A stretch of 64,000 nt of DNA from the UHGV virus genome UHGV-0242533; one strand, 5' to 3'. The notes under the pieces are model-generated. The model did not search any database. It was not told the origin of the DNA and saw only the letters and a program-made list of their open reading frames with translations. The DNA is from a virus. How positions within the stretch are numbered: position 1 is the first letter of the stretch; each line of letters starts with the position of its first letter. This document shows positions 17,333 to 29,739 of the stretch, in pieces. The position numbers were made by a program, and so were the translations under genes.

Positions 17333-18529
17333 ATGTTTCCAGTAACATTAGAAGATACTGAAGGTAATGTTTTAACGGTCAACCCTCCTTGTTATGGGTT
17401 CCTTCAACTTCGCAACTATAATGGTGGCGTTGATGAAGACGACGAAGATGATGACTACTTCGACCCTAACATGTATGAGGCAACTCATGGATGGAATATG
17501 CACGTTCGAGTGTGGCATGAAGAAGCTAACGTTCGTAGTGCTGATGGGGAAGAGTTCCTGTTAAGCCGAGAGATGGATATGTGTAAAATCAAGCATATCT
17601 GGAACTCTGGAACTCATATGAAGATGTTAGGTTTTAGACGTTGGCGTGATGAAAAGCATGTAGCTGAAGCTTTAAGTTGGTGTTCGTATGAAGATGAAGA
17701 CACGCCCCCTAAGAATAACATTGAACGTTGGAACGACAAAAATCCTGAACATCAAACCACACCTCGTGCTGTACTGGAAGCTATGGAAGCATTTGTGGAC
17801 AAAGATCGTCCCTCCTGTTTACGCTGGCACGATAAAGGTTTTATGGGGGTAGCAACTGAAAATGTTCCTGCTGATCGTTGTCTATTCTATTTGATGTTAG
17901 ATCGAACCTTCTATTGTGAAGATGAAGAGAGTCAAGTTGAAACCTTCCTCCACAAATGGTTGGTTGAAGGCTGGACAATCCTTCAGGCTTATGTTTACTC
18001 ACGAATGGTTAGCACTTACACTAACCTCTTAGGGGAAACGAAAGCAACTCTGGTTGGTAATGATTGGGATGCTTGTATCTTCCCAGCGTCGCTGTTTACA
18101 GTCGGCATGGCTGATAAATACGCTGAAGCATTTCAAGTGCCTTGGCGTCAACAGTCATACAGAGATGGATGCGGTCACTTTCGTGATGAAGACTTTAAGT
18201 GGATTCATTATGAGAACGACGAAACAGCAGAATTGCGAGTTAACAACTCAATGTTCTTGCCAGTGATGCACCCCGATCTAGTAAAAGATGGGTCAGAGAT
18301 ACTTAAAGGTGATAATCTTTTGGTTAACTTTACCCGTCGCGTGTCTAAAAATGAGAGAACAGCTAACAGGTTAATCTACGGCATTCGTGCCGAGGCTAAA
18401 GACCTGTTCAACATCTACAACATTGTTCAGCGATTTAGTAGTGGAACTCTGGACCAAAGTTCGGAGTATTCAGTGATTCCGTCCTCTGAGTGGGATGGTA
18501 TTATGAGCGGATTATATTTAGGAAAATAA
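17333..18529 (+). CDS. hypothetical protein (398 aa) with acidic DEDDEDDDY patch
   Basis: Long ORF at head of the amidoligase cluster. Confidence 0.75.
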   Translation: MFPVTLEDTEGNVLTVNPPCYGFLQLRNYNGGVDEDDEDDDYFDPNMYEATHGWNMHVRVWHEEANVRSADGEEFLLSREMDMCKIKHIWNSGTHMKMLGFRRWRDEKHVAEALSWCSYEDEDTPPKNNIERWNDKNPEHQTTPRAVLEAMEAFVDKDRPSCLRWHDKGFMGVATENVPADRCLFYLMLDRTFYCEDEESQVETFLHKWLVEGWTILQAYVYSRMVSTYTNLLGETKATLVGNDWDACIFPASLFTVGMADKYAEAFQVPWRQQSYRDGCGHFRDEDFKWIHYENDETAELRVNNSMFLPVMHPDLVKDGSEILKGDNLLVNFTRRVSKNERTANRLIYGIRAEAKDLFNIYNIVQRFSSGTLDQSSEYSVIPSSEWDGIMSGLYLGK

Positions 18530-18539
18530 AAGGTTAGTT

Positions 18540-19511
18540 ATGTCAATCTCCACAACGATCGTACCTCTTAATCTTCAACAAGATTTAGGGGAACAGAAGT
18601 TCTTAGGTCGTGGGTGCTTCGGTATCCACAACTACATGCAAGGCCAGTGTGTAAATGACATTAATGGTGAAGTTATCACGGAAGAAGGGCGCTATCGTCG
18701 CTTCAACCGCGATATCAACTTGCAACTGGAGATGTTGAATTACTGGACTCACTCTTTTCATGGTCATGTTACATCTGATATTGAAAAGAATTTGGTTGAA
18801 ACAGCAGACATTATGAACTCCATGTCTTGCTATCGTGACGTATTTACGATCACTTCAGCGAATAGTGTTGCTGTCAACCTTCGTGAGCATCCAGCAGATC
18901 AGATCTTCACAGGACTTATGCTTTTCCGTAGCATTCTGGAAGGGCAGTATCGTGGAATGGATTTCCTATCAGAAGGAATTGAAGACAGGGAAGAGTGGCT
19001 GAAGCGTAAACGCATCGGCATCGCTCTAGTGTTAGCTGGGTTGGGTCGTGACTTCTTCGGTGGATGGTCTCAACGAGGAAGAGCCAATGGGAGTAGCGAG
19101 AGCACCTCTATTGTTATTAACAACAATATGTCAGCAGCAGCATTCCTTCCTTTGGTTGTAGACTCTGATGAATACACGAAGCAAGTATGGGTTCAAAACC
19201 CCTTCGGTGTTGGCGACAACGAGAATGGTTATGTTCGTAACCATAACCAAGATGCCTTACGAAGATTTGCTCGTGCTAAAGATCAAGACCCGGACGAGTA
19301 TGAAACAATGTCAGAGTGGTTAAGACTCTGGTCCAACTGTTATGGTCACAAACGTGAAGCAATAGACGACAAGTTGGGAAACATTACAGTACAAAACTTT
19401 ACAGCCCGACTGATTCAAAGAACTGGAGCAGATTCCGGTCTTACTCTTGAAGAAGTTGGTAACACAATCTCATCTCTCTTTTCTGAACTAGTGGAGTATT
19501 ACAATGACTAA
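18540..19511 (+). CDS. hypothetical protein (323 aa)
   Basis: Long ORF. Confidence 0.75.
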   Translation: MSISTTIVPLNLQQDLGEQKFLGRGCFGIHNYMQGQCVNDINGEVITEEGRYRRFNRDINLQLEMLNYWTHSFHGHVTSDIEKNLVETADIMNSMSCYRDVFTITSANSVAVNLREHPADQIFTGLMLFRSILEGQYRGMDFLSEGIEDREEWLKRKRIGIALVLAGLGRDFFGGWSQRGRANGSSESTSIVINNNMSAAAFLPLVVDSDEYTKQVWVQNPFGVGDNENGYVRNHNQDALRRFARAKDQDPDEYETMSEWLRLWSNCYGHKREAIDDKLGNITVQNFTARLIQRTGADSGLTLEEVGNTISSLFSELVEYYND

Positions 19512-20310
19512 GCGCAAATTCCTTATCGGCTCTGACCCTGAAATGTTTGTTCGTACTAGCAATGGTATCATCACTTCTGTAGCCGGTTTATTAGGCTGCT
19601 CTAAGGACGATAAGATCGCTCTGGCTAAGGATGTTCGTCTCCAAGAGGACAACGTACTGGCTGAGTTTGATATTGACCCACAGAGCGGTTTTGAAGCGTT
19701 TAACGATAACATGCAACGTGGTATTGATCTCACCAATAATGTCCTGAACAAACTGGACATGGAAACAGCTCCGGGTGTTAGCTCTCACATCTTCACTGAA
19801 GAAGAGATGAAGACCTTTAATGAATCAGCGTTCATCTTCGGGTGCACTCCTGATTTCAACGCCTTCACTGGTCAGAAAAACCCATCCCCGACTTCTCAGA
19901 ATAAGGGACTTCGTACTGCCGGTGGTCACGTACATCTTGGCGTAGTTGGTGCTTTGGATATCACTCTGCAAACTCAGATGATGCTGGGTGTGTTGTGTGA
20001 CTACTTCCTGTCTCTCCCAGCAGTAATTATGGACAAAGATACTCGCCGTAAAGAACTCTACGGTAAAGCATCTGCAATCCGTTATAAAGACTATGGTATT
20101 GAATACCGTTCTCTGTCTAACTTCTGGATTAGTGATCGTGAAAACCGTAAGTTTGTTTACGATCAGGTTGACAAGGTTGTTCAGCAGTGTGATATGTCCA
20201 CCCTGATGGCATTGCACTCTCGCCTTCCGATTGAGAAGCTTCATGAAATCATTAACGGGAACAACGTTAAAGAAGCTGACCAGCAGATCAAACTCCTTCA
20301 GGTAGCATAA
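19504..20310 (+). CDS. amidoligase (carboxylate-amine ligase, glutamine-synthetase-like superfamily), copy 1
   Basis: GSDPEMF (G-x-acidic-x-E), AGGHVHLGV (H-x-H) and GIEYRS (E-x-R) motifs shared with paralogue 20934..22037. Confidence 0.6.
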   Translation: MTKRKFLIGSDPEMFVRTSNGIITSVAGLLGCSKDDKIALAKDVRLQEDNVLAEFDIDPQSGFEAFNDNMQRGIDLTNNVLNKLDMETAPGVSSHIFTEEEMKTFNESAFIFGCTPDFNAFTGQKNPSPTSQNKGLRTAGGHVHLGVVGALDITLQTQMMLGVLCDYFLSLPAVIMDKDTRRKELYGKASAIRYKDYGIEYRSLSNFWISDRENRKFVYDQVDKVVQQCDMSTLMALHSRLPIEKLHEIINGNNVKEADQQIKLLQVA

Positions 20311-20319
20311 GAGGTTATC

Positions 20320-20937
20320 GTGAGCTTAGTAGCTGATTTTTCTCATTACTATAATGGTACATGGATTGCTAAACGAGCAGGCAATATCAACCTTCCGTGT
20401 TTTGTGATTGGTGTTGAGCAGAGCGGTAACTTCCGCAGCGATGACTTCTCGCATGAAGCAGAACAGGCTCTGTATTTTGTTGTAGAGCAGTGGTACAAGA
20501 ACGAGCATGGGAATCTCCGAAACACTACGATGAATATTCCAGTGTTCGACCCAACCTTGATTCTCGAATCACCTGATGTTGGTTATCTGTTCCATAACGG
20601 TAACACTGTAAGCTGGACTCATATCAATCCTGTTCGTCAGAGAGCGAAGGGTTTGATGGGTAACAAGATTCGAAACGCTCCGGGGATTGGTCGTTCGATC
20701 TCTGGTGAAATGGTTTACAGTCTGTTCAATCCTGAATTTGATGGATTGGTTACTCGTTATATTTACATCAATCCTACAGATGGTAAAGTGCATTATAAAG
20801 GTGCACTGGTAGGTCAGGTAGATCTGGAAGCGCCTCGTGACTCTTACGGTCAACAACCGATGCGACTTCTGGAACATTTTCATCACATCTCTGAAAACCT
20901 TAGCAATTATAATATTACGTTGGTGGATTCGTTATGA
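20320..20937 (+). CDS. hypothetical protein (205 aa)
   Basis: ORF. Confidence 0.65.
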   Translation: MSLVADFSHYYNGTWIAKRAGNINLPCFVIGVEQSGNFRSDDFSHEAEQALYFVVEQWYKNEHGNLRNTTMNIPVFDPTLILESPDVGYLFHNGNTVSWTHINPVRQRAKGLMGNKIRNAPGIGRSISGEMVYSLFNPEFDGLVTRYIYINPTDGKVHYKGALVGQVDLEAPRDSYGQQPMRLLEHFHHISENLSNYNITLVDSL

Positions 20938-22037
20938 CAACTGTAGCGCAAACTTTTGGATATCGAGAAGGTCGTTTAACTGAGGCGCATAGTTCAATTG
21001 CACTTCAGTGCGGTGTCGGTATTGAACTTGAACTCGAAGGTTCTGAACATATCGAAGCAGATATGTGGGATTGCACAGAGGATGGTTCCCTGCGTAACGG
21101 TTGTGAAATGGTATGTTCACGACCTTACAACGGACAGGAGTTGTTAGACGCTATCAACAACCTGAGTGAAGCAGTAGCTGAATCGCACGCCGAGGGGACT
21201 TGGCGTTGCTCTACTCACGTTCATATGGATATGAGGGATGCTGATAGTAATATCCTCAAGAAGACCATCCTTGCTTGGACCTTCTATGAAAAGATGCTGT
21301 TCAAGTGTTCAGGCTACCATCGTTACCGTAGCAATTTCTGCCCTGCGTTTGCAGTGGTACAAGCACAGGTAATGAATGCCTCTGACGCATTTAACTACGA
21401 TGGTGAAGAATTCTTCAACCGTCTGGTTCGTTCATGGGATAAATATACATCTCTGAACCTTCTGCCACTTGCCCAATACGGTTCAATTGAGTTCCGTATC
21501 AGTGAGCCTAAGTGGAAACGTGGTCAACTTCTCAATCTGGTTAACCGCTTCTTGATGTTGAAGAAGCTGGCTTTAGATAACGCAGATATGAGCAATGATC
21601 AGTTTATTGAGCACTTAAATACTGTACGATTTGCCCCAATGCTTCCCTACCTTCCTCTGGATTACAATCTGGATGAATCTGATTTGCATTCAGGATATTG
21701 TATGGCCCGTGATGTTTTGTATTGCCGTTCTCATGAAGTAGAACAGTCTGGTCGTATTCGTTTACGTAGAACTAACTCCAACGGAGATGTTCTTGTTGAC
21801 TTACGTCATATGTCAGACTTCTACGGATTCCTTGGATATGTCCGAGGGAACGCTAACAATTTGTACCAAGAGATTCTGGTTATGCTTCGTACAGCAGACC
21901 TATCTCAAGTAAGACACGCTCCAGAACAGCGTATCCGTGCTATTTTTGACTTACTGCGTGAGTCAGGTCACAGTGATAGCAATATCACAGGGTACATTCC
22001 AGACCATCTGGAAAATCAGTTAGAGCAAGCGCTGTAA
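20934..22037 (+). CDS. amidoligase (carboxylate-amine ligase family), copy 2
   Basis: VGIELELEG, STHVHMD, GSIEFRISE motifs. Confidence 0.65.
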   Translation: MTTVAQTFGYREGRLTEAHSSIALQCGVGIELELEGSEHIEADMWDCTEDGSLRNGCEMVCSRPYNGQELLDAINNLSEAVAESHAEGTWRCSTHVHMDMRDADSNILKKTILAWTFYEKMLFKCSGYHRYRSNFCPAFAVVQAQVMNASDAFNYDGEEFFNRLVRSWDKYTSLNLLPLAQYGSIEFRISEPKWKRGQLLNLVNRFLMLKKLALDNADMSNDQFIEHLNTVRFAPMLPYLPLDYNLDESDLHSGYCMARDVLYCRSHEVEQSGRIRLRRTNSNGDVLVDLRHMSDFYGFLGYVRGNANNLYQEILVMLRTADLSQVRHAPEQRIRAIFDLLRESGHSDSNITGYIPDHLENQLEQAL

Positions 22038-22116
22038 TCAATGGGTGCCTCTGACAAAGGGGCACAATTTAAAGGTTAATTAGATGAAAGGGTTTACCCT
22101 TCAGGTGGATTAGAAA

Positions 22117-24147
22117 ATTTGTGGCATCGTATTAGCTGGCGGTAATCTGTCAAGCACTGATTTAGACGTATTCAACCAACTCTTTTATGCTGGAGTATTC
22201 CGAGGACAACATTCCTCCGGCATCTTTGGTCAGCGTAAAAGCACTAAGGAAGTCTTCACTTATAAAGAAGCTCTTCCTTCTTTCGCATTCATCCTACAAG
22301 ATGAGTACAAGAAGCATACCACTGGTGAAACAGCTTACACTGTAGCACCTTCATGGATTGTTGGTCACAGTCGTCATGCAACGAAAGGTGCAGTTAACGC
22401 CAAGAACGCCCATCCTTTCCAACATGGTAACATCACTCTGGTTCATAATGGAACCTTGATGGACCAAGACCTGTTACCTGACAGTAAAAACTTCGAGGTA
22501 GACAGTGAGAACATCTGCCACTCTATTAACACTATTGGTGCAGCAGAGACTATTCAAAAGCTGGATGGTGCTTTCACCTTAATCTGGCATGATGCTTCTG
22601 ATAACCGTCTTCATATCATCCGTAACGAAGAGCGTCCATTCCATCTCGCACGTTGTAACAGAGATTGGTTTGGTGCTTCTGAAGAAGACATGTTGATGTG
22701 GATTCTGAAGCGTTCTAGATCTCACAAGAACCGTATTGATGAGCATTTTGAATGTAAAGTTGGTACAGAATATATCTTTGATATGTCAAACAACAGCATG
22801 ACTCTGGTTGAAGAGGTCGCCCACGAGCTTCCGGTTTTTACGGTAATCAATCGTTGGGGCAATTACTACTCGAACAACTACAGCCAAAGCAACTATCAAA
22901 GTTCCTCAAAAAGCAATACAAGCAATCCTTACGACACGAAGCCGGGAGTGACAGCGGCAGACGTTCGTCGAAGAAACGCAGTGGTAAGTCAAAACAAAAT
23001 CGCAAGCGATCGAAACATTGATATTCGCCGTGATATGACTGTGGAAATCACACCACATGAGTTTGTTCCTTATGCAGCTGCTGGTGCTGTTCCTTCTCGT
23101 GGTAAGATGATCGGTTATATCTACGATGAGAAGTCTCAAGAGTATATCGAAGGTGATGTTCATAATGTAGACATTAAGGCTTATCAGGATGCACTGAAAG
23201 ACCCTAAAATTGTTTACCGTGGAACAGTATCCTGCATCTCCGAAGTTAATGCTATGGTTCGTTTAGTGATCACAGCAGGTCGTTTTGTTGACCCATCTCT
23301 GGAGAAAAAGGAGCCTGAGTCTACTACTGCTGACTTTGATGATGATATCCCTTTTGACATGAATGATAGTTTCGTCAACAAGAATGGCGTTACTATCACT
23401 CGTAAATTCTGGGAAGCACACTCTCATGGTGACTGTGGTGGTTGTGACAAACACATTGATTGGAAGGACGCACCTAAAGCAGTCTTCGCATATCAGTGCT
23501 ACTGGCATCCTGAATGTCTGGAAGGTTTGACTAAACCTAAAGAGGAAGAAGAGGAGGAAACTCCTATTGGTGTTTGTGAAATCTGCGGTGAAGTTAAAAC
23601 AGAGAATGAGTTCGATGATGAACTTAGTCGTCTTCGTGGTGAAGATATCTGTAAAGTCTGCGCTGTAGAAGTAAAGAAGAAAGTATCTAATGCTACGATC
23701 AAAGATGGTTATGTATGGATTAAAGCAACAGATACAACAAACGCCCGTCGTCCTGAATTTGCTTTACGTGTAACTGAAGATATGATTGGTCGTATGACTG
23801 TATTACCTTCCTCAGCGAAACAGACAGGCATCACTCTGGAGGATGTTGTTGATGCTTATGTTGAGAAACGTAGCAACAGTATTTTTGCAATCTCAACTAA
23901 GCCAAAAAAGGAGGAACCTGCTGAGAAAGCAGGTGTGTTTCCTGAATCACGAACAGCTCTCCGAAAAACTGTTGTCAGCTTCGACGGAAACCGAAGCACT
24001 GACTTCACCAAAGCCATGTGGTCAACCCTCGGATACTGCTCAGAGTGTTTTAAGCAGATTCCGTGGCGCGATGCTGAAAGTTGTACGCTTGGTTCTATGA
24101 ATCAAGTTTATTGTAATTCTCCTAAATGTTCATTGAATAGAGGTTAA
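22117..24147 (+). CDS. class-II (Ntn-type) glutamine amidotransferase domain fused to Cys-rich zinc-ribbon-like C-terminal region
   Basis: C-G-I-V at 22120 then FRGQHSSGIFG, HSRHATKG...NAHPF, HNGTL motifs; frame open only from 22114; the codon before Cys is ATT (22117), preceded by in-frame TAG and a 9-codon ATG ORF (22084); the ORF track shows only the 22456..24147 portion. Confidence 0.75.
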   Translation: MCGIVLAGGNLSSTDLDVFNQLFYAGVFRGQHSSGIFGQRKSTKEVFTYKEALPSFAFILQDEYKKHTTGETAYTVAPSWIVGHSRHATKGAVNAKNAHPFQHGNITLVHNGTLMDQDLLPDSKNFEVDSENICHSINTIGAAETIQKLDGAFTLIWHDASDNRLHIIRNEERPFHLARCNRDWFGASEEDMLMWILKRSRSHKNRIDEHFECKVGTEYIFDMSNNSMTLVEEVAHELPVFTVINRWGNYYSNNYSQSNYQSSSKSNTSNPYDTKPGVTAADVRRRNAVVSQNKIASDRNIDIRRDMTVEITPHEFVPYAAAGAVPSRGKMIGYIYDEKSQEYIEGDVHNVDIKAYQDALKDPKIVYRGTVSCISEVNAMVRLVITAGRFVDPSLEKKEPESTTADFDDDIPFDMNDSFVNKNGVTITRKFWEAHSHGDCGGCDKHIDWKDAPKAVFAYQCYWHPECLEGLTKPKEEEEEETPIGVCEICGEVKTENEFDDELSRLRGEDICKVCAVEVKKKVSNATIKDGYVWIKATDTTNARRPEFALRVTEDMIGRMTVLPSSAKQTGITLEDVVDAYVEKRSNSIFAISTKPKKEEPAEKAGVFPESRTALRKTVVSFDGNRSTDFTKAMWSTLGYCSECFKQIPWRDAESCTLGSMNQVYCNSPKCSLNRG

Positions 24148-24149
24148 GT

Positions 24150-24383
24150 ATGGAAATTCGTAAGATGATGCTGGATAATGTTGTAACTACTCGACGTATC
24201 CCGATGACGAGCACAGGATGTGACAACCTTCGTGCAATCCAGAAGTGGATGCAAGCTGGTATTGGTCAAGTACTTGAAACACAGGTTGAGGTTCCTTTCC
24301 CAACGGTGATCAACAACGTGCTTGCTGATTATGTAAAAATCAAAGGCATTAAGGTAGAACCTCATGTCAAATCTGGTTCCTAA
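24150..24383 (+). CDS. hypothetical protein (77 aa)
   Basis: ORF. Confidence 0.5.
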   Translation: MEIRKMMLDNVVTTRRIPMTSTGCDNLRAIQKWMQAGIGQVLETQVEVPFPTVINNVLADYVKIKGIKVEPHVKSGS

Positions 24384-24588
24384 GAAACCAAAGATCACTC
24401 TCCTACAGTATTACATGGGAGTTCATATCGAATTAGTAACGGAGCAGCGAAAGCTGTATCCGTTCGCTTTCGGTCTGATTGATGCACCATCCGATGAAGT
24501 AGAGAACGATGCGTTCAACGACTACTTCGAAATTGAAGCTCAGATTCAAAAAACTCGTAACGAAATTCTTAAACTTAAAGGTATCTAA
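24364..24588 (+). CDS. hypothetical protein (74 aa)
   Basis: ORF. Confidence 0.5.
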   Translation: MSNLVPKKPKITLLQYYMGVHIELVTEQRKLYPFAFGLIDAPSDEVENDAFNDYFEIEAQIQKTRNEILKLKGI

Positions 24589-24590
24589 CA

Positions 24591-25784
24591 ATGACTACTC
24601 GTATCCGTGTTCTTCCTTATGGTCCTTCTGATTCAGTTCGTGAACTTACTTCTGCAATTAACACTAAGATTCAGGAACTTCGCTTAAACGCTAACGTAAT
24701 GTCTCTGGTATCAGAAGGCTCTCGTTATCGTTCTCGAGTTGGTGATATTGTTGTCAACTATGGAAACCGTCGATACAATGATTCTTTCTTTGGTGGGGCA
24801 ACTGTATTGAACTCTGTGGTTGCCTTGAACCGAGCAGCTAATAAGATTGCAGCATTTAACGCATTGCGTTTAGCTGAAGTTAAAACTGTTGAATACACCA
24901 CTGATCGTGAATTAGCTCTGAACTGGAACCAGAACGAAATTGTTTACGAACGTGCAACATTAACTGGTCACTCTGGTGAAGGTATCACTGTTCGTCTTCC
25001 GACAGAAGGTGTTGCAGATGCCCCTCTATACACCAAAGGTATTCAAGGCCCACGTCGTGAATGGCGTGTTCATGTATTTGAAGGTGTTATCACTTACGTT
25101 CAGAAGAAGATTCGTCGTAATGGATACCGTGATCTGTCAACCTATCGTGAAGACATTCGCAATCACCATACTGGTTGGGTTTATTCCTCAAACTTCCAAG
25201 ATGCACCACCTCCTCAAGTATTGATTCAAGCTCACAAAGCTGTAGAAGCTCTTGGATTGAACTTTGGTGCTGTTGATCTAATAAGCAAAGTTTCTAACGC
25301 TTGGGTTCTGGAAGTAAATACTGCTCCTGGGCTGACTGGTACAACTCTGGAAACTTACACTCATAATATTGTTGAGTTTGTTAAGAGCTTCTCTGGAGTT
25401 GATCCTGATTATCGTGTTGCTTACGAACTGCCTGTTGAAGAAGTGGAAGAGTTTGCTGAATCAGCAGATGACGAGAACTTTGCATTGACAGCTGAACCAG
25501 TTGTTGAAGAGTCTTCGGAGCCTGTTCCTGAAACAATGCAAGTGGAAGAACAAGGGTTAGAGATCAACCCTGTCACCCGTCGTACTTTACGTCGTGGTTA
25601 TTACATCGCTAATATCAAGCACCCTGAGAATGGTTCAACTGTAGCAAGTAATGTGATCTTGTTCTTCTGTGGTCGTAACTTCTACCGCTCTGGGTGGAAC
25701 GCACCGATTAGTGATCGCCAGCTTGGTCGTGTGTTGCAGATTAACAGTCTTACTCTGAATGATGGCACTGTTGTAAACTACTAA
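24591..25784 (+). CDS. ATP-grasp ligase (RimK/glutathione-synthetase-like) with acidic C-terminal extension
   Basis: EWRVHVF and AVDLI...VLEVNTAPGL motifs. Confidence 0.7.
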   Translation: MTTRIRVLPYGPSDSVRELTSAINTKIQELRLNANVMSLVSEGSRYRSRVGDIVVNYGNRRYNDSFFGGATVLNSVVALNRAANKIAAFNALRLAEVKTVEYTTDRELALNWNQNEIVYERATLTGHSGEGITVRLPTEGVADAPLYTKGIQGPRREWRVHVFEGVITYVQKKIRRNGYRDLSTYREDIRNHHTGWVYSSNFQDAPPPQVLIQAHKAVEALGLNFGAVDLISKVSNAWVLEVNTAPGLTGTTLETYTHNIVEFVKSFSGVDPDYRVAYELPVEEVEEFAESADDENFALTAEPVVEESSEPVPETMQVEEQGLEINPVTRRTLRRGYYIANIKHPENGSTVASNVILFFCGRNFYRSGWNAPISDRQLGRVLQINSLTLNDGTVVNY

Positions 25785-25790
25785 GGATAT

Positions 25791-26039
25791 ATGGATATGT
25801 TTTCATTGGAAGATCTAGTACAAAATGGAATGATGGAACAAAAAGAGCCTCTTATTGTAGGCTCTCGTAAAGAGTTGCGTAAATTGTGCGAGGAGTGGGG
25901 TATTACTAATCAGCGAATGGTTGGTAATCAATTCTCTGCAATTGTAACTTTCCTAAAACGTGGTGATAAATACTCTATGGAATGTGTAGAACGTATCATC
26001 ACTGAAGCACAACAAGACAAAGGAGTAACATATCTATGA
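25791..26039 (+). CDS. hypothetical protein (82 aa)
   Basis: ORF. Confidence 0.5.
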   Translation: MDMFSLEDLVQNGMMEQKEPLIVGSRKELRKLCEEWGITNQRMVGNQFSAIVTFLKRGDKYSMECVERIITEAQQDKGVTYL

Positions 26040-26221
26040 ATAAGTATAAAGTTCTGTTTAAAGATACCAATGCCGCTGGTGAAATGCGAGCTATGGACCT
26101 AGATGCTGACATGTTTAACTTCTCTGATGGCAAAGTGGCCTTCTTTCAAGGAAGTGAAGCCGTTGCAGTGTTTGAGAGTGCAGCAATCTGTGGTGTAATC
26201 AAAATCTTTATTACAGAGTAA
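26036..26221 (+). CDS. hypothetical protein (61 aa)
   Basis: ORF. Confidence 0.45.
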   Translation: MNKYKVLFKDTNAAGEMRAMDLDADMFNFSDGKVAFFQGSEAVAVFESAAICGVIKIFITE

Positions 26222-26274
26222 TCTGCTTTAGCCTCTTCGAAAGAGGGGGCTAGTTTGGATAAACTGGAGAATAT

Positions 26275-26454
26275 ATGAAACTTTTTGATGAAAAACACAA
26301 AAAGCAAATGGAAGACAACTCTAAGAAGTTGGAATCCAATCTTCGTAAACGTGTAGCCCAAGGCTCGGATGGTTCTCTGTTCGGAAATATCGGATACTCT
26401 TTTGCCAAGAATCTTTTACATAGTATGGAAACCAGAAAAGTGATAAAGAAATAA
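26275..26454 (+). CDS. hypothetical protein (59 aa)
   Basis: Not in ORF track; ATG 26275 with GGAG RBS. Confidence 0.4.
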   Translation: MKLFDEKHKKQMEDNSKKLESNLRKRVAQGSDGSLFGNIGYSFAKNLLHSMETRKVIKK

Positions 26455-26513
26455 AACAGTTTTCTTTATCTACAACTCATGAACAAATTATTTAACATAG
26501 AAAGGTATTTAAA

Positions 26514-26933
26514 ATGTCAGAAGTAATTTACGTAGCAACTTATGGTTCTCTTCGTCGTGGTCAAGCTAACTATTTAGTTAATGATCGAGCTGGTGCTAAG
26601 TCTATTGGCGAGGGTTGGACTGAAGATAACTTCGATCTGTTCCGTTACGGTGGTTCCTACTTCCCGAGCATCTCTCTCGCACACAGCAATAGCAATAAGC
26701 CTGTTCGTGTAGAAGTGTTTGCTACTGACAAAGCAGGTCTGGAAGGTCCATATGACCGACTGGAAGGTTACAACAAACGTAGCCCTGAAGACAGCTTCTA
26801 TCAGCGTACTCAGATTGCTGTTAAGATGGACTCAGGTGAAACTGTTATCGCTTGGATTTATCACATTGACGAAGAACAAGATGTTCTGGTCGAATCTGGC
26901 GACTGGTCAGAGTATCTGAAAAGTGAATCTTGA
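26514..26933 (+). CDS. gamma-glutamyl cyclotransferase-like (AIG2/GGCT fold) protein
   Basis: N-terminal VATYGSLRRG motif. Confidence 0.65.
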   Translation: MSEVIYVATYGSLRRGQANYLVNDRAGAKSIGEGWTEDNFDLFRYGGSYFPSISLAHSNSNKPVRVEVFATDKAGLEGPYDRLEGYNKRSPEDSFYQRTQIAVKMDSGETVIAWIYHIDEEQDVLVESGDWSEYLKSES

Positions 26934-27152: not shown

Positions 27153-28640
27153 ATGTCAAAGATCATTTTGGGAGACACAGGTTGTAAGGAATGTATCTCT
27201 CATGGTCGTGATAAAACCCACAACCACATGATTCTCTTCCGTAACGAAGAGACAGGTGAGGAGTGGGGGAGTTGTAACCGTTGTGGGAATTACGAAGTGT
27301 TCGAAAAGGGCACTACACCTACTCCAAACGAGAAGAAAGAGCTATCCCCTGAAGAGTTAAGAGAAGTCTTAGACGATTGCTTAGAGCTTCCTCAGGGTGA
27401 ACTTACTCGACGTTTAATCCCTAAAGCCGTATCAGAGCGTTTTGAGTGTCGAATTGGTCTAAGTCAGACTGATGGTCAGACTCCAGACAGCTACTTCTTT
27501 CCTCGTGAACGTGATGGAAACATTGTCGGTTATGAGGTTAAGCTGCTTGACAGTAAGAAGTTCTATTACGTTGGCAGTGTGAAAGAAGCAGATTTATTTG
27601 GTATGGCACAGGCTCAGCGTGGAGATGTGTACAACAAGAAGCTGTTCATTTTTGAAGACCCGCTATCCTGTATGTCAGGTTTCCATGTCCTTACAGCTTT
27701 TACAAATGCAACAAACATTAAACCAGCATGTGTTTCTTTACCGTTCGGTGCAGGTTCAATCTCTTCTGTGTTGTCTCGTAATCGAGACTTCGTAAATGGT
27801 TTTGAGGAGGTTGTGCTCTGCATGGACAATGACGATGCAGGTGAGATAGCTTTAACAAAAGGTCGTTCTTTATTCCCTCATGTCAAGTTTGCTCGTATTC
27901 CTAAAGGAACCTTCCCATACAACGGTGTGGAGAAAGAGATTAAGGATGCGAATGACATGCTTCTGTCTGGTCGTGGTCAGGAGTTATTCAACATTCTCAA
28001 GTATTCAGCAAAGCGAGAATCTCCTGCTGGCGCTGTAACAATCTTTGATTGCCTTGATGATGCTCTGAAGAAAGCGGAGTGGGGTATTCCATATCCGTGG
28101 AAGACTCTGAATGAGATGACCTTTGGTATTCGATGGGGAGAGGTGGTAGCAATCGGTGGTGGTGTAGGTAGTGGTAAGACACTAATTGCTCACGAGCTGG
28201 TTGCTCATCTGTGCTTAGAGCATGGTTTTAATGGGGGTGGCTTCTTCTTGGAAGAGAAGGTAGGCATGTCTGTTAAGAACATCGCTGGTAAGTCAGCATC
28301 AATTCCTTTCCACCGACCTGATGTTGAATATGATGAGGAGGATTTGCGTAATGAAGCACTTCGTTATGCAGACAAATTCTTCTTGTATGACAACTTCGGA
28401 CAGAATGAATGGGAAGACATTAAACAGTGTATCCGTTTCTGGGTAGTTGAAAACCAGTGTAAGTTCATCATCCTTGATAACATTACCGCTCTGGTATCTC
28501 ATTTAACACCTTCAGAGATTAACACTGAAATCAGTAAGATTGCTTCAGAGCTTGCTGGTATGTGTAAAGAGTTAGACTTTACCGCTTTCGTTCTATCTCA
28601 CCTTAATGCTCCGGCAGGTGGTGCTCCTCATGAAGAGGGT
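27153..28640 (+). CDS. DNA primase-helicase (T7 gp4-like), exon 1
   Basis: Zn finger C-x2-C...C-x2-C, primase region, Walker A GGGVGSGKT, SHLN...HEEG motif; the ORF hits a stop (28644-28646) inside the conserved helicase domain. Confidence 0.8.
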
Positions 28641-29436
28641 AAGTAACAAGCCCTCTATAAATTCTGTGAACTCAGGGGAACTCTAGAACAGACAATCCTG
28701 AGCTAAGCCTAGTAATAACCCTCCTATAAGGAGGTAATATGAAACAGTATCTTGGAAAATATACGGTTCATAAAGATGGACGAATAATCAGTCACTATAA
28801 CGGGAAGCCTTTAACCATCTCTCTTTACAAACCAAATAAACAGGGTAAGAAGATTGTTTATCCTAGAGTTAGGCTCTGTATTGACGGGAAAGGTAAATGG
28901 TTTGCACTACACAGGATTATAGCTGAATGCTATATCCCAAATCCAGAAAATCTTCCACATATAAACCATAAAGATGGAAACAGATTGAATAACTCTGTTG
29001 AAAATCTTGAATGGTGCAGTCATCTACAGAATATACGGCATGCCCAAGAACACAACCTCAACCCTAAAGGAGAGAGGCAAGGTATTGCAGTTGCAACTGA
29101 AGAGATTGTAAGGAGAATTAGAAGTTTAAGAAGGGGTGGTATGTCTTATAAAGATATCGCTGAGCTTGTTAAACTTAAGAGAAGAACAGTCGAAGCTATT
29201 GGTTCTTATCAAAACTGGAAACACATAGAGTGAGTGGTTATTACTAGGAAAGTGCAACGACTAGGGTGGGCGTAAGCCCGAAGTACAGCCAAGCGGTGTC
29301 ATTAACATTGACTTAAATGGAAGCGCAGAACCTTCAAATTGAAGTGAAGATATAGTCTGGTCTACATGGGGACATGTAGCAGTTCAGAGATAGAACCTGA
29401 ACGGGGTGTGATTAGCGATCACATCTGAACACAACG
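28641..29436 (+). mobile_element. group I self-splicing intron (about 0.8 kb) carrying an HNH homing-endonuclease ORF
   Basis: Host gene frame shifts by +1 across the insert; 3' region has AAGATATAGTC (near-canonical group I S element), GACTA/TAGTC P7 candidates and three stable hairpins; exon 1 ends in T, insert ends in G; boundaries approximate (+/- 6 nt). Confidence 0.6.
28739..29233 (+). CDS. HNH homing endonuclease (intron-encoded)
   Basis: H-x-H...N...N-x-x-x-N-L-x-W...H-x-x-N pattern (INHKDGNRLNNSVENLEWCSHLQN); strong RBS AAGGAGG. Confidence 0.8.
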   Translation: MKQYLGKYTVHKDGRIISHYNGKPLTISLYKPNKQGKKIVYPRVRLCIDGKGKWFALHRIIAECYIPNPENLPHINHKDGNRLNNSVENLEWCSHLQNIRHAQEHNLNPKGERQGIAVATEEIVRRIRSLRRGGMSYKDIAELVKLKRRTVEAIGSYQNWKHIE

Positions 29437-29739
29437 GGACAGGTACGTGAAGTACAGTTCACTGGCTCTCGTTCTCTTATGCGTTGGTGTCAGTGTATCA
29501 TTGGCTTTGAGCGTGACAAGCAAGCTGACGGCTTAGCTAAGAACCTCTCAGTCATTCGATTACTGAAAGAACGTAACTACGGTCAGACAGGTGTTTGTTA
29601 TACTAAGTATATCAGTGAAACCGGTAGACTTGTAGAAAGGGAAGACTTTGAAGTTGATGAAGATAATCCATTCGTTTTAACTAACGGAGAGGATGCAGCT
29701 TCTCTCGTCAACCAAGCAGATGGAGCTTCACCGTGGTAA
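29437..29739 (+). CDS. DNA primase-helicase, exon 2 (helicase C-terminal motifs)
   Basis: VQFTGSRS...[10 protein letters not shown] resumes the helicase motifs as recalled from T7 gp4; no in-frame start codon before these residues. Confidence 0.6.

What the first reader, a model, noticed from the sequence alone, without database searches (positions are those of the whole stretch)
17333..26933. Phage-borne amide-bond-forming enzyme cluster: two amidoligases, class-II glutamine amidotransferase, ATP-grasp ligase, GGCT-like protein
Five enzymes that make or break amide/peptide bonds sit in one co-directional block with several unknown ORFs (17333, 18540, 20320, 24150, 24364, 25791, 26036). This combination has been noted bioinformatically in phages (Iyer, Aravind and colleagues, as I recall) but has no demonstrated substrate or product. 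It could build a peptide-like metabolite, add an amino-acid tag to a phage or host protein, or feed a nucleic-acid modification, given the nucleotide-metabolism genes nearby.
Basis: partly seen in the sequence, partly recalled or inferred. Interest (0 to 1): 0.85.

Follow-up and report, generated by a model that had tools for sequence, protein, structure and literature searches.

The report
Known phage gamma-glutamyl amide-ligase cassette
This is the phiEco32-type gene cassette (three ATP-dependent amide-bond ligases, a glutamine amidotransferase and a gamma-glutamyl cyclotransferase) that hundreds of podophages of Gram-negative bacteria carry just upstream of their DNA-replication genes; it is real, tightly conserved and described since 2009, but what it makes or modifies is still unknown.

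Summary
The window is a Kuravirus (about 96% identical to phiEco32 and SU10). The block 17333-26933 corresponds to phiEco32 gp88-gp77.

The clustering is not chance. In 66 of 68 unrelated viral contigs found through one ligase, the second ligase, the amidotransferase and the ATP-grasp lie within about 4.8 kb. They are on one strand, almost always in the same order, and upstream of primase/helicase and DNA polymerase.

The cassette is already in the literature (Iyer/Aravind 2009; Hardies 2013; "peptidoglycan modification cassette"). I found no experimental substrate in papers up to 2026.

- Four "unknown" ORFs (17333, 18540, 20320, 24150) are conserved cassette members with no Pfam or PDB relatives.
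- ORF 25791 is gp79, the known sigma-70 inhibitor, and is not part of the cassette.
- The amidotransferase starts at an ATT codon (22117) directly before its catalytic Cys, so gene callers truncate it.
- Instead of a synthase domain it carries an OB/S1-like domain and zinc-ribbon-like modules.

Best reading: an early-expressed, cytoplasmic pathway that builds and trims gamma-glutamyl-type amide bonds on one unidentified acceptor.

The parts
17333..18529 (+). gp88-like protein (398 aa), 'X' family. Unknown function; distant paralogue of the next gene.
   Evidence: No Pfam, NCBIfam or PDB hit. PHROG 13063, unknown function. hhalign of the Y family against the X family gives probability 91%, E 1e-6, over 126 columns. 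Positional equivalents sit upstream of the ligases in 7-11, GAP52 and LAh_9.
18540..19511 (+). gp87-like protein (323 aa), 'Y' family. Conserved unknown with an enzyme-like pattern of invariant residues.
   Evidence: An iterated profile reaches 7-11 gp106, GAP52 gp029 and LAh_9 gp057. hhalign against the ~306-aa family directly upstream of the ligase in 26 marine contigs gives probability 96.7%, E 4.6e-10. Invariant residues are C26, F27, D120, R130, Q219 and Y231. No Pfam or PDB relative.
19504..20310 (+). Carboxylate-amine ligase, Pfam COOH-NH2_lig ('phiEco32-like type 2'). Called L2 in this report.
   Evidence: PF14395, 34 bits against cut-off 25. PHROG 3815. Orthologues in all 7 distant phages examined and in 307 phage records. 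Its start overlaps the stop of gp87 by 8 nt.
20320..20937 (+). gp85 family (205 aa, GTG start). Universal unknown protein sandwiched between the two ligases; probably a non-catalytic partner.
20934..22037 (+). Carboxylate-amine ligase, Pfam Amidoligase_2. Called L1 in this report.
   Evidence: PF12224, 33.7 bits against cut-off 22. PHROG 7469. Invariant E31/E33/E35, H95/H97, R130, E186/R188 across 8 distant orthologues. Found in 302 phage records.
22117..24147 (+). Class-II (Ntn) glutamine amidotransferase, 676 codons. ATT start codon, Cys codon at 22120, Shine-Dalgarno AGGTGG at 22103-22108. The C-terminal half is a helix plus an OB/S1-like barrel plus three zinc-ribbon-like modules, with no known synthase domain.
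24150..24383 (+). DUF7195 small protein (77 aa, gp82). Conserved between the GATase and the ATP-grasp.
   Evidence: PF23825, E 5e-17. The iterated profile reaches 7-11, GAP52, LAh_9, LUZ24 gp20 and tf_23, always at the same position.
24591..25784 (+). RimK-like ATP-grasp ligase (397 aa) with an acidic linker and an extra ~80-aa C-terminal domain.
   Evidence: A profile of 8 orthologues against PDB hits RimK and alpha-L-glutamate ligases at E 8.6e-7 to 2.3e-6 over positions 36-254. NCBIfam RimK-family and MptN hits lie far below cut-off. PHROG 2599 plus PHROG 20552 for the C-terminal domain.
26514..26933 (+). Gamma-glutamyl(amine) cyclotransferase, GGACT/AIG2-like (139 aa).
   Evidence: PF06094, E 4.3e-17. 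Y10-G11-x-L13 and D81-x-L83-E84-G85 conserved in 48 non-redundant orthologues.
24364..24588 (+). gp81 (74 aa). No homologue outside the phiEco32-like loci; not a conserved cassette member.
   Evidence: Homologues were found only in phiEco32-like loci.
25791..26039 (+). gp79 (82 aa). Known RNA-polymerase-binding inhibitor of sigma-70 transcription and activator of the phage sigma factor; embedded in the block but functionally unrelated to it.
   Evidence: Corresponds to phi32_79. Function described in PMC12276001 and PMC8948821. Absent from 7-11 and GAP52, which keep the cassette.
26036..26221 (+). gp78 (61 aa). No homologue outside the phiEco32-like loci; not a conserved cassette member.
26275..26454 (+). 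59-aa ORF inside a ~235-bp insertion that phiEco32 lacks. Homologue of 7-11 gp087, which also sits directly upstream of that phage's GGACT gene.
   Evidence: phmmer E 3.6e-16. The blastn gap against phiEco32 places the insertion at window ~26265-26501.

Best explanation
The block is the Kuravirus copy of a vertically conserved, early-expressed, cytoplasmic multi-enzyme module. It builds and then trims gamma-glutamyl-type amide (isopeptide) bonds on one common acceptor.

Proposed steps (all inferred from family chemistry):
1. The two glutamine-synthetase/GCS-fold carboxylate-amine ligases (L2, L1) are translated together with the gp85 partner that always lies between them. Each activates a carboxylate with ATP and joins it to an amine, making two different amide bonds. 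At least one is probably a gamma-glutamyl link.
2. The RimK-like ATP-grasp extends a free alpha-carboxylate with an amino acid, most likely Glu.
3. The Cys1 Ntn amidotransferase keeps every residue that holds the alpha-amino and alpha-carboxyl groups of a glutamine or gamma-glutamyl moiety. It either delivers NH3 to amidate a carboxylate in trans or, like EgtC, hydrolyses a gamma-glutamyl amide.
4. The GGACT enzyme removes a gamma-glutamyl group as 5-oxoproline. In many marine relatives a Peptidase_C26 gamma-glutamyl hydrolase is also present.

A ligase-plus-remover logic in one operon is what known pathways use when gamma-glutamyl serves as a transient handle (EgtA/EgtC, BtrJ/BtrG, PuuA/PuuD).

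The acceptor is not identified. My ranking:
- a small peptide-like metabolite or amine, about 0.25;
- cytoplasmic murein-peptide precursors, as the literature proposes, about 0.2;
- a phage or host protein, about 0.2;
- a nucleic acid, about 0.12;
- metabolite-pool management, about 0.1.

Shown here: the folds, the catalytic residues, the gene order, the co-occurrence and the absence of membrane segments. Inferred: every chemical step and the gamma-glutamyl theme.
For: - Folds and catalytic residues are established.
- One functional unit: 66 of 68 contigs carry L1, the GATase and the ATP-grasp beside L2 within a median 4.8 kb. Gene order is fixed in 62 of 68, all on one strand. The same order holds from Kuravirus to Bruynoghevirus, Krylovvirus, Grimontviridae, Lahexavirus, Zobellviridae and phiM6.
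- Translational coupling: overlapping or near-abutting junctions gp87/L2, L2/gp85 and gp85/L1.
- Gamma-glutamyl theme, from four independent families of gamma-glutamyl-bond enzymes. These are GGACT; the class-II GATase, whose closest folds include the gamma-glutamyl amidohydrolase EgtC; Peptidase_C26 in 26 related loci and phiM6; and GCS-type ligases.
- Cytoplasmic: no 19-residue segment in any cassette protein exceeds Kyte-Doolittle 1.6.
- Early expression: SU10 assigns CDS 69-125 to the early class and detected the ATP-grasp, GATase and GGACT proteins by mass spectrometry. No phage-sigma promoter consensus lies within the block.
Against: - No substrate, product or phenotype is known. All chemistry is extrapolated from distant relatives (15-22% identity to solved GATases; ATP-grasp E about 1e-6).
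- Neither ligase has a solved relative detectable by sequence, so their carboxylate and amine specificities are unknown.
- The GATase carries an OB/S1-like domain and zinc-ribbon-like modules where a synthase domain would be. gp85 may have an SH3/Tudor-like domain. These features fit a macromolecular acceptor better than a small molecule.
- The GGACT gene was not detected within the flanks in 22 of 68 contigs, so trimming by this enzyme may be dispensable.
- Four conserved proteins (X, Y, gp85, DUF7195) have no assigned role in the scheme.
Confidence: 0.55

Rival explanations
1. Peptidoglycan-peptide remodelling, the hypothesis in the literature. The ligases, amidotransferase and cyclotransferase would alter the unusual linkages of the murein stem peptide (gamma-D-Glu-mDAP, amidation, added residues) in cytoplasmic precursors. 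This would change the cell surface and exclude superinfecting phages, or tune lysis.
For: - Proposed by Iyer et al. 2009 and Hardies et al. 2013, as relayed in PMC5498523 and PMC10580990.
- Every host named among the listed hits for the full cassette is a Gram-negative proteobacterium with mDAP-type murein; the tool's counts lump a further 15 organism names and 87 host entries that I did not inspect.
- From established knowledge, murein biosynthesis uses ATP-grasp (Ddl) and class-II GATase (AsnB-type mDAP amidation) enzymes.
Against: - No cassette protein has a signal peptide, a membrane segment or a recognisable murein-binding or Mur-ligase domain.
- The cassette is always linked to primase/helicase and DNA polymerase, not to lysis genes.
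- Amidoligase plus GATase pairs are reported in viruses of archaea that lack murein (PMC11706807).
- No experiment supports it.
Confidence: 0.2
2. Modification of a macromolecule. The enzymes would add and remove a glutamyl or peptide tag on a phage or host protein (as RimK does on S6, or PafA/Dop with Pup), or on DNA/RNA during replication. The OB/S1-like and zinc-ribbon modules of the amidotransferase and the gp85 adaptor would hold the polymer.
For: - The OB-like part is conserved in LUZ24, tf and Vibrio orthologues.
- The closest solved relatives of the ATP-grasp are RimK protein-glutamate ligases.
- The N-terminal domain of gp85 resembles SH3/Tudor adaptors (weak).
- The position immediately upstream of the replication genes is fixed.
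- Gordonclarkvirinae are reported as remarkably resistant to restriction-modification systems without a known DNA-modification pathway (PMC11990801). Yet this window contains 12 EcoRI, 27 EcoRV, 9 EcoKI and 101 EcoP1I sites.
Against: - GGACT enzymes are known to act on free gamma-glutamyl-amines, not on polymers (established knowledge).
- None of the signature genes of known DNA hypermodification pathways is annotated in phiEco32, which does encode a thymidylate synthase.
- Strong avoidance of CCWGG, CTGCAG, GAGCTC and CCATGG suggests the DNA is exposed to at least some restriction enzymes.
- I know of no report of modified DNA or modified virion proteins in phiEco32, SU10 or LUZ24.
Confidence: 0.3
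3. Auxiliary metabolism. The genes would simply redirect host nitrogen and thiol pools (glutamine to glutamate plus NH3, glutathione or gamma-glutamyl-polyamine synthesis and breakdown) to support nucleotide synthesis during infection, with no dedicated new product.
For: - Each enzyme family has a housekeeping counterpart in the glutathione cycle (GCS-type ligase, ATP-grasp GshB, ChaC/GGCT) or in polyamine catabolism (PuuA, Peptidase_C26 PuuD); this is established knowledge.
- The cassette lies near nucleotide-metabolism genes. In 7-11, GAP52 and LAh_9 it lies near NAD-salvage genes.
- Several papers label the genes as AMGs.
Against: - The proteins are far from any housekeeping equivalog. The GATase scores 42 bits against a GlmS cut-off of 381, and the ATP-grasp 19.9 bits against a RimK cut-off of 331.
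- Neither ligase hits any NCBIfam model.
- Four phage-restricted unknown proteins are co-conserved in fixed order. That is not expected for borrowed housekeeping enzymes.
Confidence: 0.1
4. No functional unit: a chance run of unrelated early genes that happen to have amide-bond folds.
For: Unrelated genes (gp79, gp78, gp81, and homing-endonuclease ORFs in relatives such as UFV-P2 and phiM6) are interspersed.
Against: Co-occurrence and fixed order hold in 62-66 of 68 contigs from very different phage lineages. The same positional unknown families recur.
Confidence: 0.02

Closest known systems
phiEco32-type phage amidoligase cassette (Iyer, Abhiman, Burroughs & Aravind 2009; Hardies et al. 2013; called 'peptidoglycan modification cassette' in Duhaime et al. 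2017, PMC5498523)
   Same: It is this system. The genes are about 96% identical to phiEco32 gp88-gp77. The same enzyme set and order are found in 7-11, GAP52, LUZ24, tf, Vibrio/Zobellviridae phages and phiM6.
   Different: Nothing essential differs. This genome has a 235-bp insertion with a small ORF before the GGACT gene, and an HNH insertion in the neighbouring primase/helicase.
Ergothioneine pathway EgtA (gamma-glutamyl-cysteine ligase) plus EgtC (class-II GATase-fold gamma-glutamyl amidohydrolase)
   Different: There are no EgtB/EgtD homologues. Sequence identity is 16-18%. The phage enzyme has an OB/S1-like domain and zinc-ribbon-like modules. The NCBIfam EgtC model scores 20 bits against a cut-off of 219.
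Butirosin BtrJ (ATP-grasp gamma-glutamyl ligase) plus BtrG (AIG2/GGCT-fold gamma-glutamyl cyclotransferase)
   Same: An ATP-grasp ligase and a GGCT-fold enzyme sit in one cluster. In butirosin biosynthesis the cyclotransferase removes a protective gamma-glutamyl group (established knowledge). InterPro labels the tf orthologue 'BtrG-like'.
   Different: There is no acyl carrier protein or aminoglycoside gene. The phage ATP-grasp is closest to RimK-type alpha-L-glutamate ligases, not to BtrJ.
RimK, ribosomal protein S6 : L-glutamate ligase (the name RefSeq gives gp80)
   Same: ATP-grasp fold, and RimK is the best solved relative (E 8.6e-7 over the catalytic core).
   Different: It scores 19.9 bits against an equivalog cut-off of 331 and 28.4 bits against a RimK-family cut-off of 143. 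It has an extra C-terminal domain. No evidence points to S6 as substrate.
GlmS, glutamine:fructose-6-phosphate aminotransferase (the name RefSeq gives gp83)
   Same: The N-terminal glutaminase domain fold and its catalytic residues.
   Different: Only profile positions 2-199 of 601 match, at 42 bits against a cut-off of 381. There are no SIS isomerase domains; the C-terminal half is OB-like plus zinc-ribbon-like modules. The annotation is an over-call.
Pupylation (PafA ligase / Dop deamidase-depupylase)
   Same: A glutamine-synthetase-fold ligase forms a gamma-glutamyl-lysine isopeptide, and a partner enzyme deamidates and reverses it. This is the analogy made by the Aravind group for such systems.
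   Different: There is no Pup-like protein with a conserved C-terminal Gln/Glu. The conserved small protein DUF7195 has a variable C-terminus. There is no proteasome link, and Dop is not a class-II GATase.

Membership tests
Class-II (Ntn) glutamine amidotransferase | Catalytic Cys as the first residue after the initiator | tested here: met
   ATT(22117)-TGT(22120), with a stop codon two codons upstream and a Shine-Dalgarno AGGTGG 8 nt upstream. 46 related loci have ATG-Cys and 8 sequences (7 related loci plus the window) have ATT-Cys. The consensus N-terminus of 120 homologues is MCGIV.
Class-II (Ntn) glutamine amidotransferase | Glutamine-binding and oxyanion residues (Arg, Asn-Gly, Asp) and the four-layer Ntn fold | tested here: met
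Class-II (Ntn) glutamine amidotransferase | A fused synthase/acceptor domain that receives NH3 (PRTase, SIS, AsnB-type PP-loop, GltS) | tested here: not met
   No Pfam domain lies beyond residue ~240 in the query or in any of the 120 listed homologues. The model shows an OB/S1-like barrel plus zinc-ribbon-like modules.
GlmS (RefSeq product name of phiEco32 gp83) | Full-length match including the two SIS isomerase domains | tested here: not met
   NF001484 scores 42.1 bits against cut-off 381 and matches only positions 2-199 of 601. TIGR01135 scores 35.7 bits against 418.
ATP-grasp ligases | ATP-grasp core with the conserved Mg/ATP-binding C-terminal motif | tested here: met
   The profile against PDB hits RimK at 8.6e-7 over positions 36-254, then Ddl and cyanophycin synthetase. 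Invariant D229, E241 and N243 across 8 orthologues. The single sequence alone falls below Pfam gathering scores.
RimK, S6:glutamate ligase (RefSeq product name of phiEco32 gp80) | Equivalog-level similarity, with S6 as substrate | tested here: not met
   NF007764 scores 19.9 bits against 331. TIGR00768 rimK_fam scores 28.4 bits against 143. The substrate cannot be tested with these tools.
Amidoligase_2 (PF12224) | Score above the Pfam gathering threshold; conserved acidic, His and Arg residues of the GS/GCS-like active site | tested here: met
   33.7 bits against 22. Invariant E31/E33/E35, H95/H97, R130 and E186/R188. ATP-dependent ligase activity itself cannot be tested here.
COOH-NH2_lig, phiEco32-like type 2 (PF14395) | Score above the Pfam gathering threshold | tested here: met
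   34 bits against 25. 52% mean column identity across 8 distant phages, with invariant D11, E13, H142, H144, E200 and R202.
GGACT/AIG2-like gamma-glutamyl cyclotransferase (PF06094) | Pfam match plus the YGSL substrate-binding motif and the catalytic Glu | tested here: met
   63.2 bits against 22.8. Y10, G11, L13 and E84 (in D-x-L-E-G) are conserved in at least 85% of 48 sequences.
phiEco32-type amidoligase cassette | Co-occurrence and conserved order of two COOH-NH2 ligases, GAT-II, ATP-grasp and GGCT in phage genomes | tested here: met
   66 of 68 contigs have L1, GAT and ATP-grasp with L2. 45 of 68 also have GGACT within the flanks. The order is conserved in 62 of 68.
Known phage DNA hypermodification pathways (5-hmdU-derived thymidine hypermodification; 7-deazaguanine) | Signature genes: dUMP hydroxymethylase plus 5-HMUDK plus amino-acid:DNA transferase, or DpdA/QueC/QueD/QueE | tested here: inconclusive
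   None is annotated in phiEco32. The record lists a thymidylate synthase, a dCTP deaminase, a dNMP-kinase-like ATPase and a nucleotidyltransferase. I read the annotation only and did not run profile searches on those genes.
Peptidoglycan-modifying systems | Export signal, membrane anchoring or murein/Mur-ligase domains, or a demonstrated change in muropeptides | tested here: not met
   No hydrophobic segment above Kyte-Doolittle 1.6 in any cassette protein. No murein-related Pfam domain. Action on cytoplasmic precursors cannot be tested with these tools.

The most novel reading that the evidence does not exclude
The cassette acts on a polymer at the replication fork rather than on a metabolite. 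The amidotransferase would be held on DNA/RNA, or on a nucleic-acid-bound protein, by its conserved OB/S1-like domain and zinc-ribbon-like modules. Together with the three ligases it would install a reversible glutamyl or amide adduct. That adduct would be the missing explanation for why Gordonclarkvirinae resist EcoRI, EcoRV, EcoKI and EcoP1 although their genomes are full of those sites. It would be a new class of ATP-dependent, amino-acid-based nucleic-acid or replisome modification.
Probability: 0.12. Interest if true: 0.85.

Novelty: already known. Interest (0 to 1): 0.4.

Why it matters
The cassette is one of the most widespread conserved gene sets of unknown function in virulent podophages. 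It occurs in about 300 sequenced isolates of Escherichia, Pseudomonas, Vibrio, Aeromonas, Salmonella, Proteus and Cronobacter phages, many of them therapy candidates, and in hundreds of marine viral contigs.

Its eight or nine genes amount to roughly 10% of a 77-kb genome. A phage would not keep that much without a strong benefit. Knowing its product would reveal either a new phage-made metabolite, a new post-translational or nucleic-acid modification, or a new way of rewiring the host envelope.

Kuraviruses that plate on E. coli K-12 now exist (BASEL Bas86-93), so the question is experimentally tractable.

For annotation practice, this case also shows three recurring errors. The amidotransferase is truncated because of its ATT start. 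It is also mis-named GlmS, and the ATP-grasp is mis-named RimK.

Tried and rejected
- **Ligase profiles against PDB.** Sequence profiles of both ligases gave no significant hit.
- **gp85 and gp87 families against Pfam, PDB and NCBIfam.** Nothing was found.
- **Domain fusions of gp85.** A search of 1.84 billion representatives found only 64 relatives, all stand-alone. The one long hit, P0215, is a false positive on a repeated 'YINSSDGKxYYKG' motif.
- **Profile-profile comparison of the unknown families with the five enzyme families.** No relationship appeared, so the unknowns are not degenerate extra ligases. LUZ24 gp14 and gp15 could not be linked to gp88 and gp87.
- **DUF7195 as a Pup/LysW-like carrier.** Rejected for now, because the C-terminus is not conserved.
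- **Restriction resistance explained by site avoidance.** Rejected for EcoRI, EcoRV, EcoKI and EcoP1I, whose sites are present at expected numbers. Avoidance is real for CCWGG, CTGCAG, GAGCTC and CCATGG.
- **A phage-sigma (TAATGTATA) promoter inside the block.** None was found beyond chance.
- **Primary papers not held in the library.** Iyer 2009 (PMC3268129) and Savalia 2008 (PMC2587145) could not be read. Their content is cited second-hand.
- **Pfam scan of all 120 GATase homologues.** The precomputed Pfam columns served instead.

Full report
**What the window is.** The 9.6-kb region matches 99 phage records, 66 of them over at least 80% of its length. Among the best are phiEco32, SU10, KM01 and the BASEL isolates Bas90 and Bas91, at 95.5-96.6% identity. 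The window is therefore a Kuravirus (Gordonclarkvirinae). The block 17333-26933 corresponds gene for gene to phiEco32 gp88 to gp77.

**Checking the observation.**
- All genes in the block are on the + strand. Junctions are overlaps or gaps of 2-10 nt, apart from a 79-nt gap before the amidotransferase and two gaps of 53 and 59 nt around the small ORF before the cyclotransferase.
- Pfam assigns 19504-20310 to COOH-NH2_lig, a family named after phiEco32. It assigns 20934-22037 to Amidoligase_2 and 26514-26933 to GGACT, all above the curated cut-offs.
- The amidotransferase looked truncated at first. ORF finders start it at TTG 22456, and only the last third of the domain matched.
- Reading the DNA shows an open frame from 22117, where ATT is followed by TGT (Cys). 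A stop lies two codons upstream and AGGTGG lies 8 nt upstream. phiEco32 is annotated the same way.
- With the full N-terminus, GATase_6 scores E 1e-14.
- An alignment of 120 homologues has the consensus N-terminus MCGIV. G82, H83, R85, N110, G111 and D128 are invariant. From established knowledge of GlmS and PurF, these are the glutamine-binding Arg, the oxyanion Asn-Gly and the Asp that holds the alpha-amino group.
- The ATP-grasp is weak as a single sequence (below Pfam cut-offs; PDB E 0.018). A profile of eight phage orthologues matches RimK-type alpha-L-glutamate ligases at E 8.6e-7 across the catalytic core.
- The cyclotransferase keeps the YGSL motif and the catalytic Glu in 48 non-redundant relatives.
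- So the five folds are real.

**Clustered or scattered.**
- Annotated regions of LUZ24, 7-11, GAP52, tf, a Vibrio Zobellviridae phage, Aeromonas LAh_9 and Sinorhizobium phiM6 share the same layout. Two ~300-aa unknowns are followed by the COOH-NH2 ligase, a ~200-aa unknown, Amidoligase_2, the GATase, a ~73-aa protein, the ATP-grasp and the GGCT. Primase/helicase and the DNA polymerase exonuclease subunit come next.
- A scan of IMG/VR with the COOH-NH2 ligase profile returned 309 relatives, of which I kept 79 loci.
- Among the 68 loci with at least 8 kb downstream, 67 have Amidoligase_2, 68 the GATase, 67 the ATP-grasp and 46 the GGACT.
- 66 have the first three within a median 4.8 kb, and 62 keep the same order.
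- The neighbours downstream are DnaB-type helicase, DNA polymerase A with its exonuclease, and ribonucleotide reductase.

**The 'unknown' ORFs.**
- *gp85 (20320-20937).* It belongs to a family that fills the slot between the two ligases. An iterated profile reaches 76 of 79 positional ORFs and nothing outside that slot. The family is small and phage-restricted, with 64 cluster representatives among 1.84 billion proteins and no informative fusions. It has no Pfam or PDB relative. Its few conserved residues (D6, Y11, R106, G111, G165) and a tentative SH3/Tudor-like N-terminal domain (low-confidence model) suggest an adaptor rather than an enzyme.
- *gp87 (18540-19511).* It is homologous to the protein directly upstream of the ligase in Grimontviridae, Lahexavirus and 26 marine contigs (hhalign 96.7%, E 4.6e-10). 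It has invariant C26, F27, D120, R130, Q219 and Y231. That pattern is enzyme-like, with no known relative.
- *gp88 (17333-18529).* It is a distant paralogue of gp87 (91%, E 1e-6).
- *gp82 (24150-24383).* It is DUF7195 and keeps its place between the GATase and the ATP-grasp as far as LUZ24 and tf.
- *Not part of the cassette.* gp81 and gp78 have no detectable homologue outside the phiEco32-like loci. gp79 (25791-26039) is the characterised inhibitor of sigma-70 transcription. It is absent from 7-11 and GAP52, which nevertheless keep the cassette.

**The amidotransferase C-terminal half.**
- Canonical class-II amidotransferases carry a synthase domain. This one has none detectable.
- The model shows a helix, then a five-stranded barrel with a helix between strands 3 and 4. 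Three CxxC-rich modules follow.
- The OB-like segment is conserved in LUZ24, tf and Vibrio orthologues. The zinc-ribbon-like modules are largely confined to the C3-morphotype phages, though a few other contigs match through the first of them.
- This is fold-level evidence only. It still argues that the enzyme is tethered to a polymer or partner rather than fused to a classical acceptor site.

**What is known.**
- The combination was described by Iyer et al. 2009 and Hardies et al. 2013. It is called a 'peptidoglycan modification cassette', conserved in RIO-1, phiEco32, 7-11, PA11, tf, MR299-2, LUZ24, PaP3 and CW02 (PMC5498523).
- Later papers repeat the superinfection-exclusion or secondary-metabolite ideas and state that the function remains to be explored (PMC10580990, PMC11706807).
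- Searches for the family names and for the enzyme combinations found no experimental study up to mid-2026.
- SU10 places these genes in the early class. It also detected the ATP-grasp, the GATase and the GGACT by mass spectrometry in its phage preparation.
- No phage-sigma promoter motif lies inside the block.

**Mechanism.**
- I commit to a single early cytoplasmic pathway centred on gamma-glutamyl-type amide bonds.
- Three ATP-dependent ligases make bonds. The Cys1 enzyme either supplies NH3 in trans or hydrolyses a gamma-glutamyl amide as EgtC does. GGACT removes gamma-glutamyl as 5-oxoproline, and in 26 related loci and phiM6 a Peptidase_C26 is also present.
- No cassette protein has a membrane segment.
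- Pairing a gamma-glutamyl ligase with a gamma-glutamyl remover is the signature of pathways that use gamma-glutamyl as a transient handle. Known examples are EgtA/EgtC, BtrJ/BtrG and PuuA/PuuD.
- The acceptor is unknown.
- The murein-precursor idea has no direct support. It fits poorly with the invariable linkage to replication genes and with reports of amidoligase-GATase pairs in archaeal viruses.
- The macromolecule idea gains some support from the OB/S1-like domain, the RimK affinity and the possible adaptor gp85.
- Gordonclarkvirinae are reported to resist restriction-modification systems without a known modification pathway (PMC11990801). This window carries 12 EcoRI, 27 EcoRV, 9 EcoKI and 101 EcoP1I sites. 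Nothing yet links that resistance to this cassette.
- The genome also strongly avoids CCWGG, CTGCAG, GAGCTC and CCATGG.

**Annotation notes.**
- RefSeq names gp83 'L-glutamine-D-fructose-6-phosphate aminotransferase' and gp80 'ribosomal protein S6 glutaminyl transferase'.
- Both fail the curated NCBIfam cut-offs by an order of magnitude (42 against 381 bits; 19.9 against 331 bits). The GlmS match covers the glutaminase domain only.
- The 563-aa truncated GATase (P0020, 211 member sequences) is an artefact of the ATT start.

**Verdict.** The real interest is the unsolved function, which is now testable in K-12-plating Kuraviruses.

Noticed in passing
window 22103-22122: The class-II amidotransferase gene starts with ATT, directly before the catalytic Cys codon, behind a strong Shine-Dalgarno (AGGTGG). 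The ATT is conserved in all Kuravirus-like loci and occurs independently in one unrelated contig (L030); 46 other loci use ATG. Gene callers therefore report a 563-aa truncated protein lacking the catalytic Cys (P0020, 211 member sequences). A rare AUU start suggests IF3-sensitive, throttled translation.
   Followed up: partly
window 27153-29739: The primase/helicase gene, uninterrupted in phiEco32 gp75 (596 aa), is split here by an insertion of about 796 bp (about 28641-29437). The insertion carries an HNH endonuclease ORF (28739-29233). The flanking parts match gp75 residues 1-485 (100%) and 482-596 (89%). It may be a homing-endonuclease insertion or a group I intron; I did not test for an intron fold.
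   Followed up: partly
window 26265-26501: A 235-bp insertion relative to phiEco32 lies between gp78 and the GGACT gene. It holds a 59-aa ORF (26275-26454) homologous to Salmonella phage 7-11 gp087 (E 3.6e-16), which also lies directly upstream of that phage's GGACT gene.
   Followed up: partly
whole window (64 kb): Restriction-site content is uneven. EcoRI (12), EcoRV (27), EcoKI (9) and EcoP1I (101) sites occur at about the expected numbers, although this phage group is reported to resist those systems. By contrast, CCWGG (3 against ~72 expected), CTGCAG (0), GAGCTC (0), CCATGG (1) and GATC (133 against 237) are strongly avoided.
   Followed up: partly
window 25791-26039: This 'unknown ORF' is phiEco32 gp79, the RNA-polymerase-binding protein that shuts off sigma-70 transcription and supports the phage sigma factor (PMC12276001, PMC8948821). 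It sits inside the enzyme block but is absent from 7-11 and GAP52, which keep the cassette.
   Followed up: yes
L001 (phiEco32 RefSeq record), genes phi32_83 and phi32_80: The product names 'L-glutamine-D-fructose-6-phosphate aminotransferase' and 'ribosomal protein S6 glutaminyl transferase' are over-annotations. Scores are 42 against 381 bits and 19.9 against 331 bits against the NCBIfam models, and there are no SIS domains.
   Followed up: yes
L003 1-1684, L004 1-587, L007 15130-18268: In 7-11, GAP52 and Aeromonas LAh_9, nicotinamide phosphoribosyltransferase and ribose-phosphate pyrophosphokinase genes (NAD salvage) lie within a few kb of the cassette. GAP52 also has TerD/TerZ-like genes there. 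No equivalent is annotated in the phiEco32 region matching this part of the window.
   Followed up: no
L008 5213-5818; L030 8927-9607; L084 8630-9274, and about 23 further loci: A Peptidase_C26 / class-I GATase-like gamma-glutamyl hydrolase gene lies just upstream of the COOH-NH2 ligase in 26 loci, which include phiM6 and several viral-metagenome contigs. phiM6 also has a second class-II GATase. Kuraviruses lack this gene.
   Followed up: partly
window 16760-16786 and 16615-16644: A terminator-like hairpin (GACTCTTTTCGGAGAGTC followed by a T-run) and a weak sigma-70-like promoter lie in the 236-nt gap upstream of the gp90-gp89-gp88 run. These may mark the 5' boundary of the transcription unit that contains the cassette.
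   Followed up: no
L005 (phage tf) 1084-14681: The tf record annotates ten localized single-strand nicks (consensus TACT/RTGMC) across the region that includes its copy of the cassette. LUZ24-type phages share this feature. I did not check whether Kuravirus DNA has such motifs.
   Followed up: no
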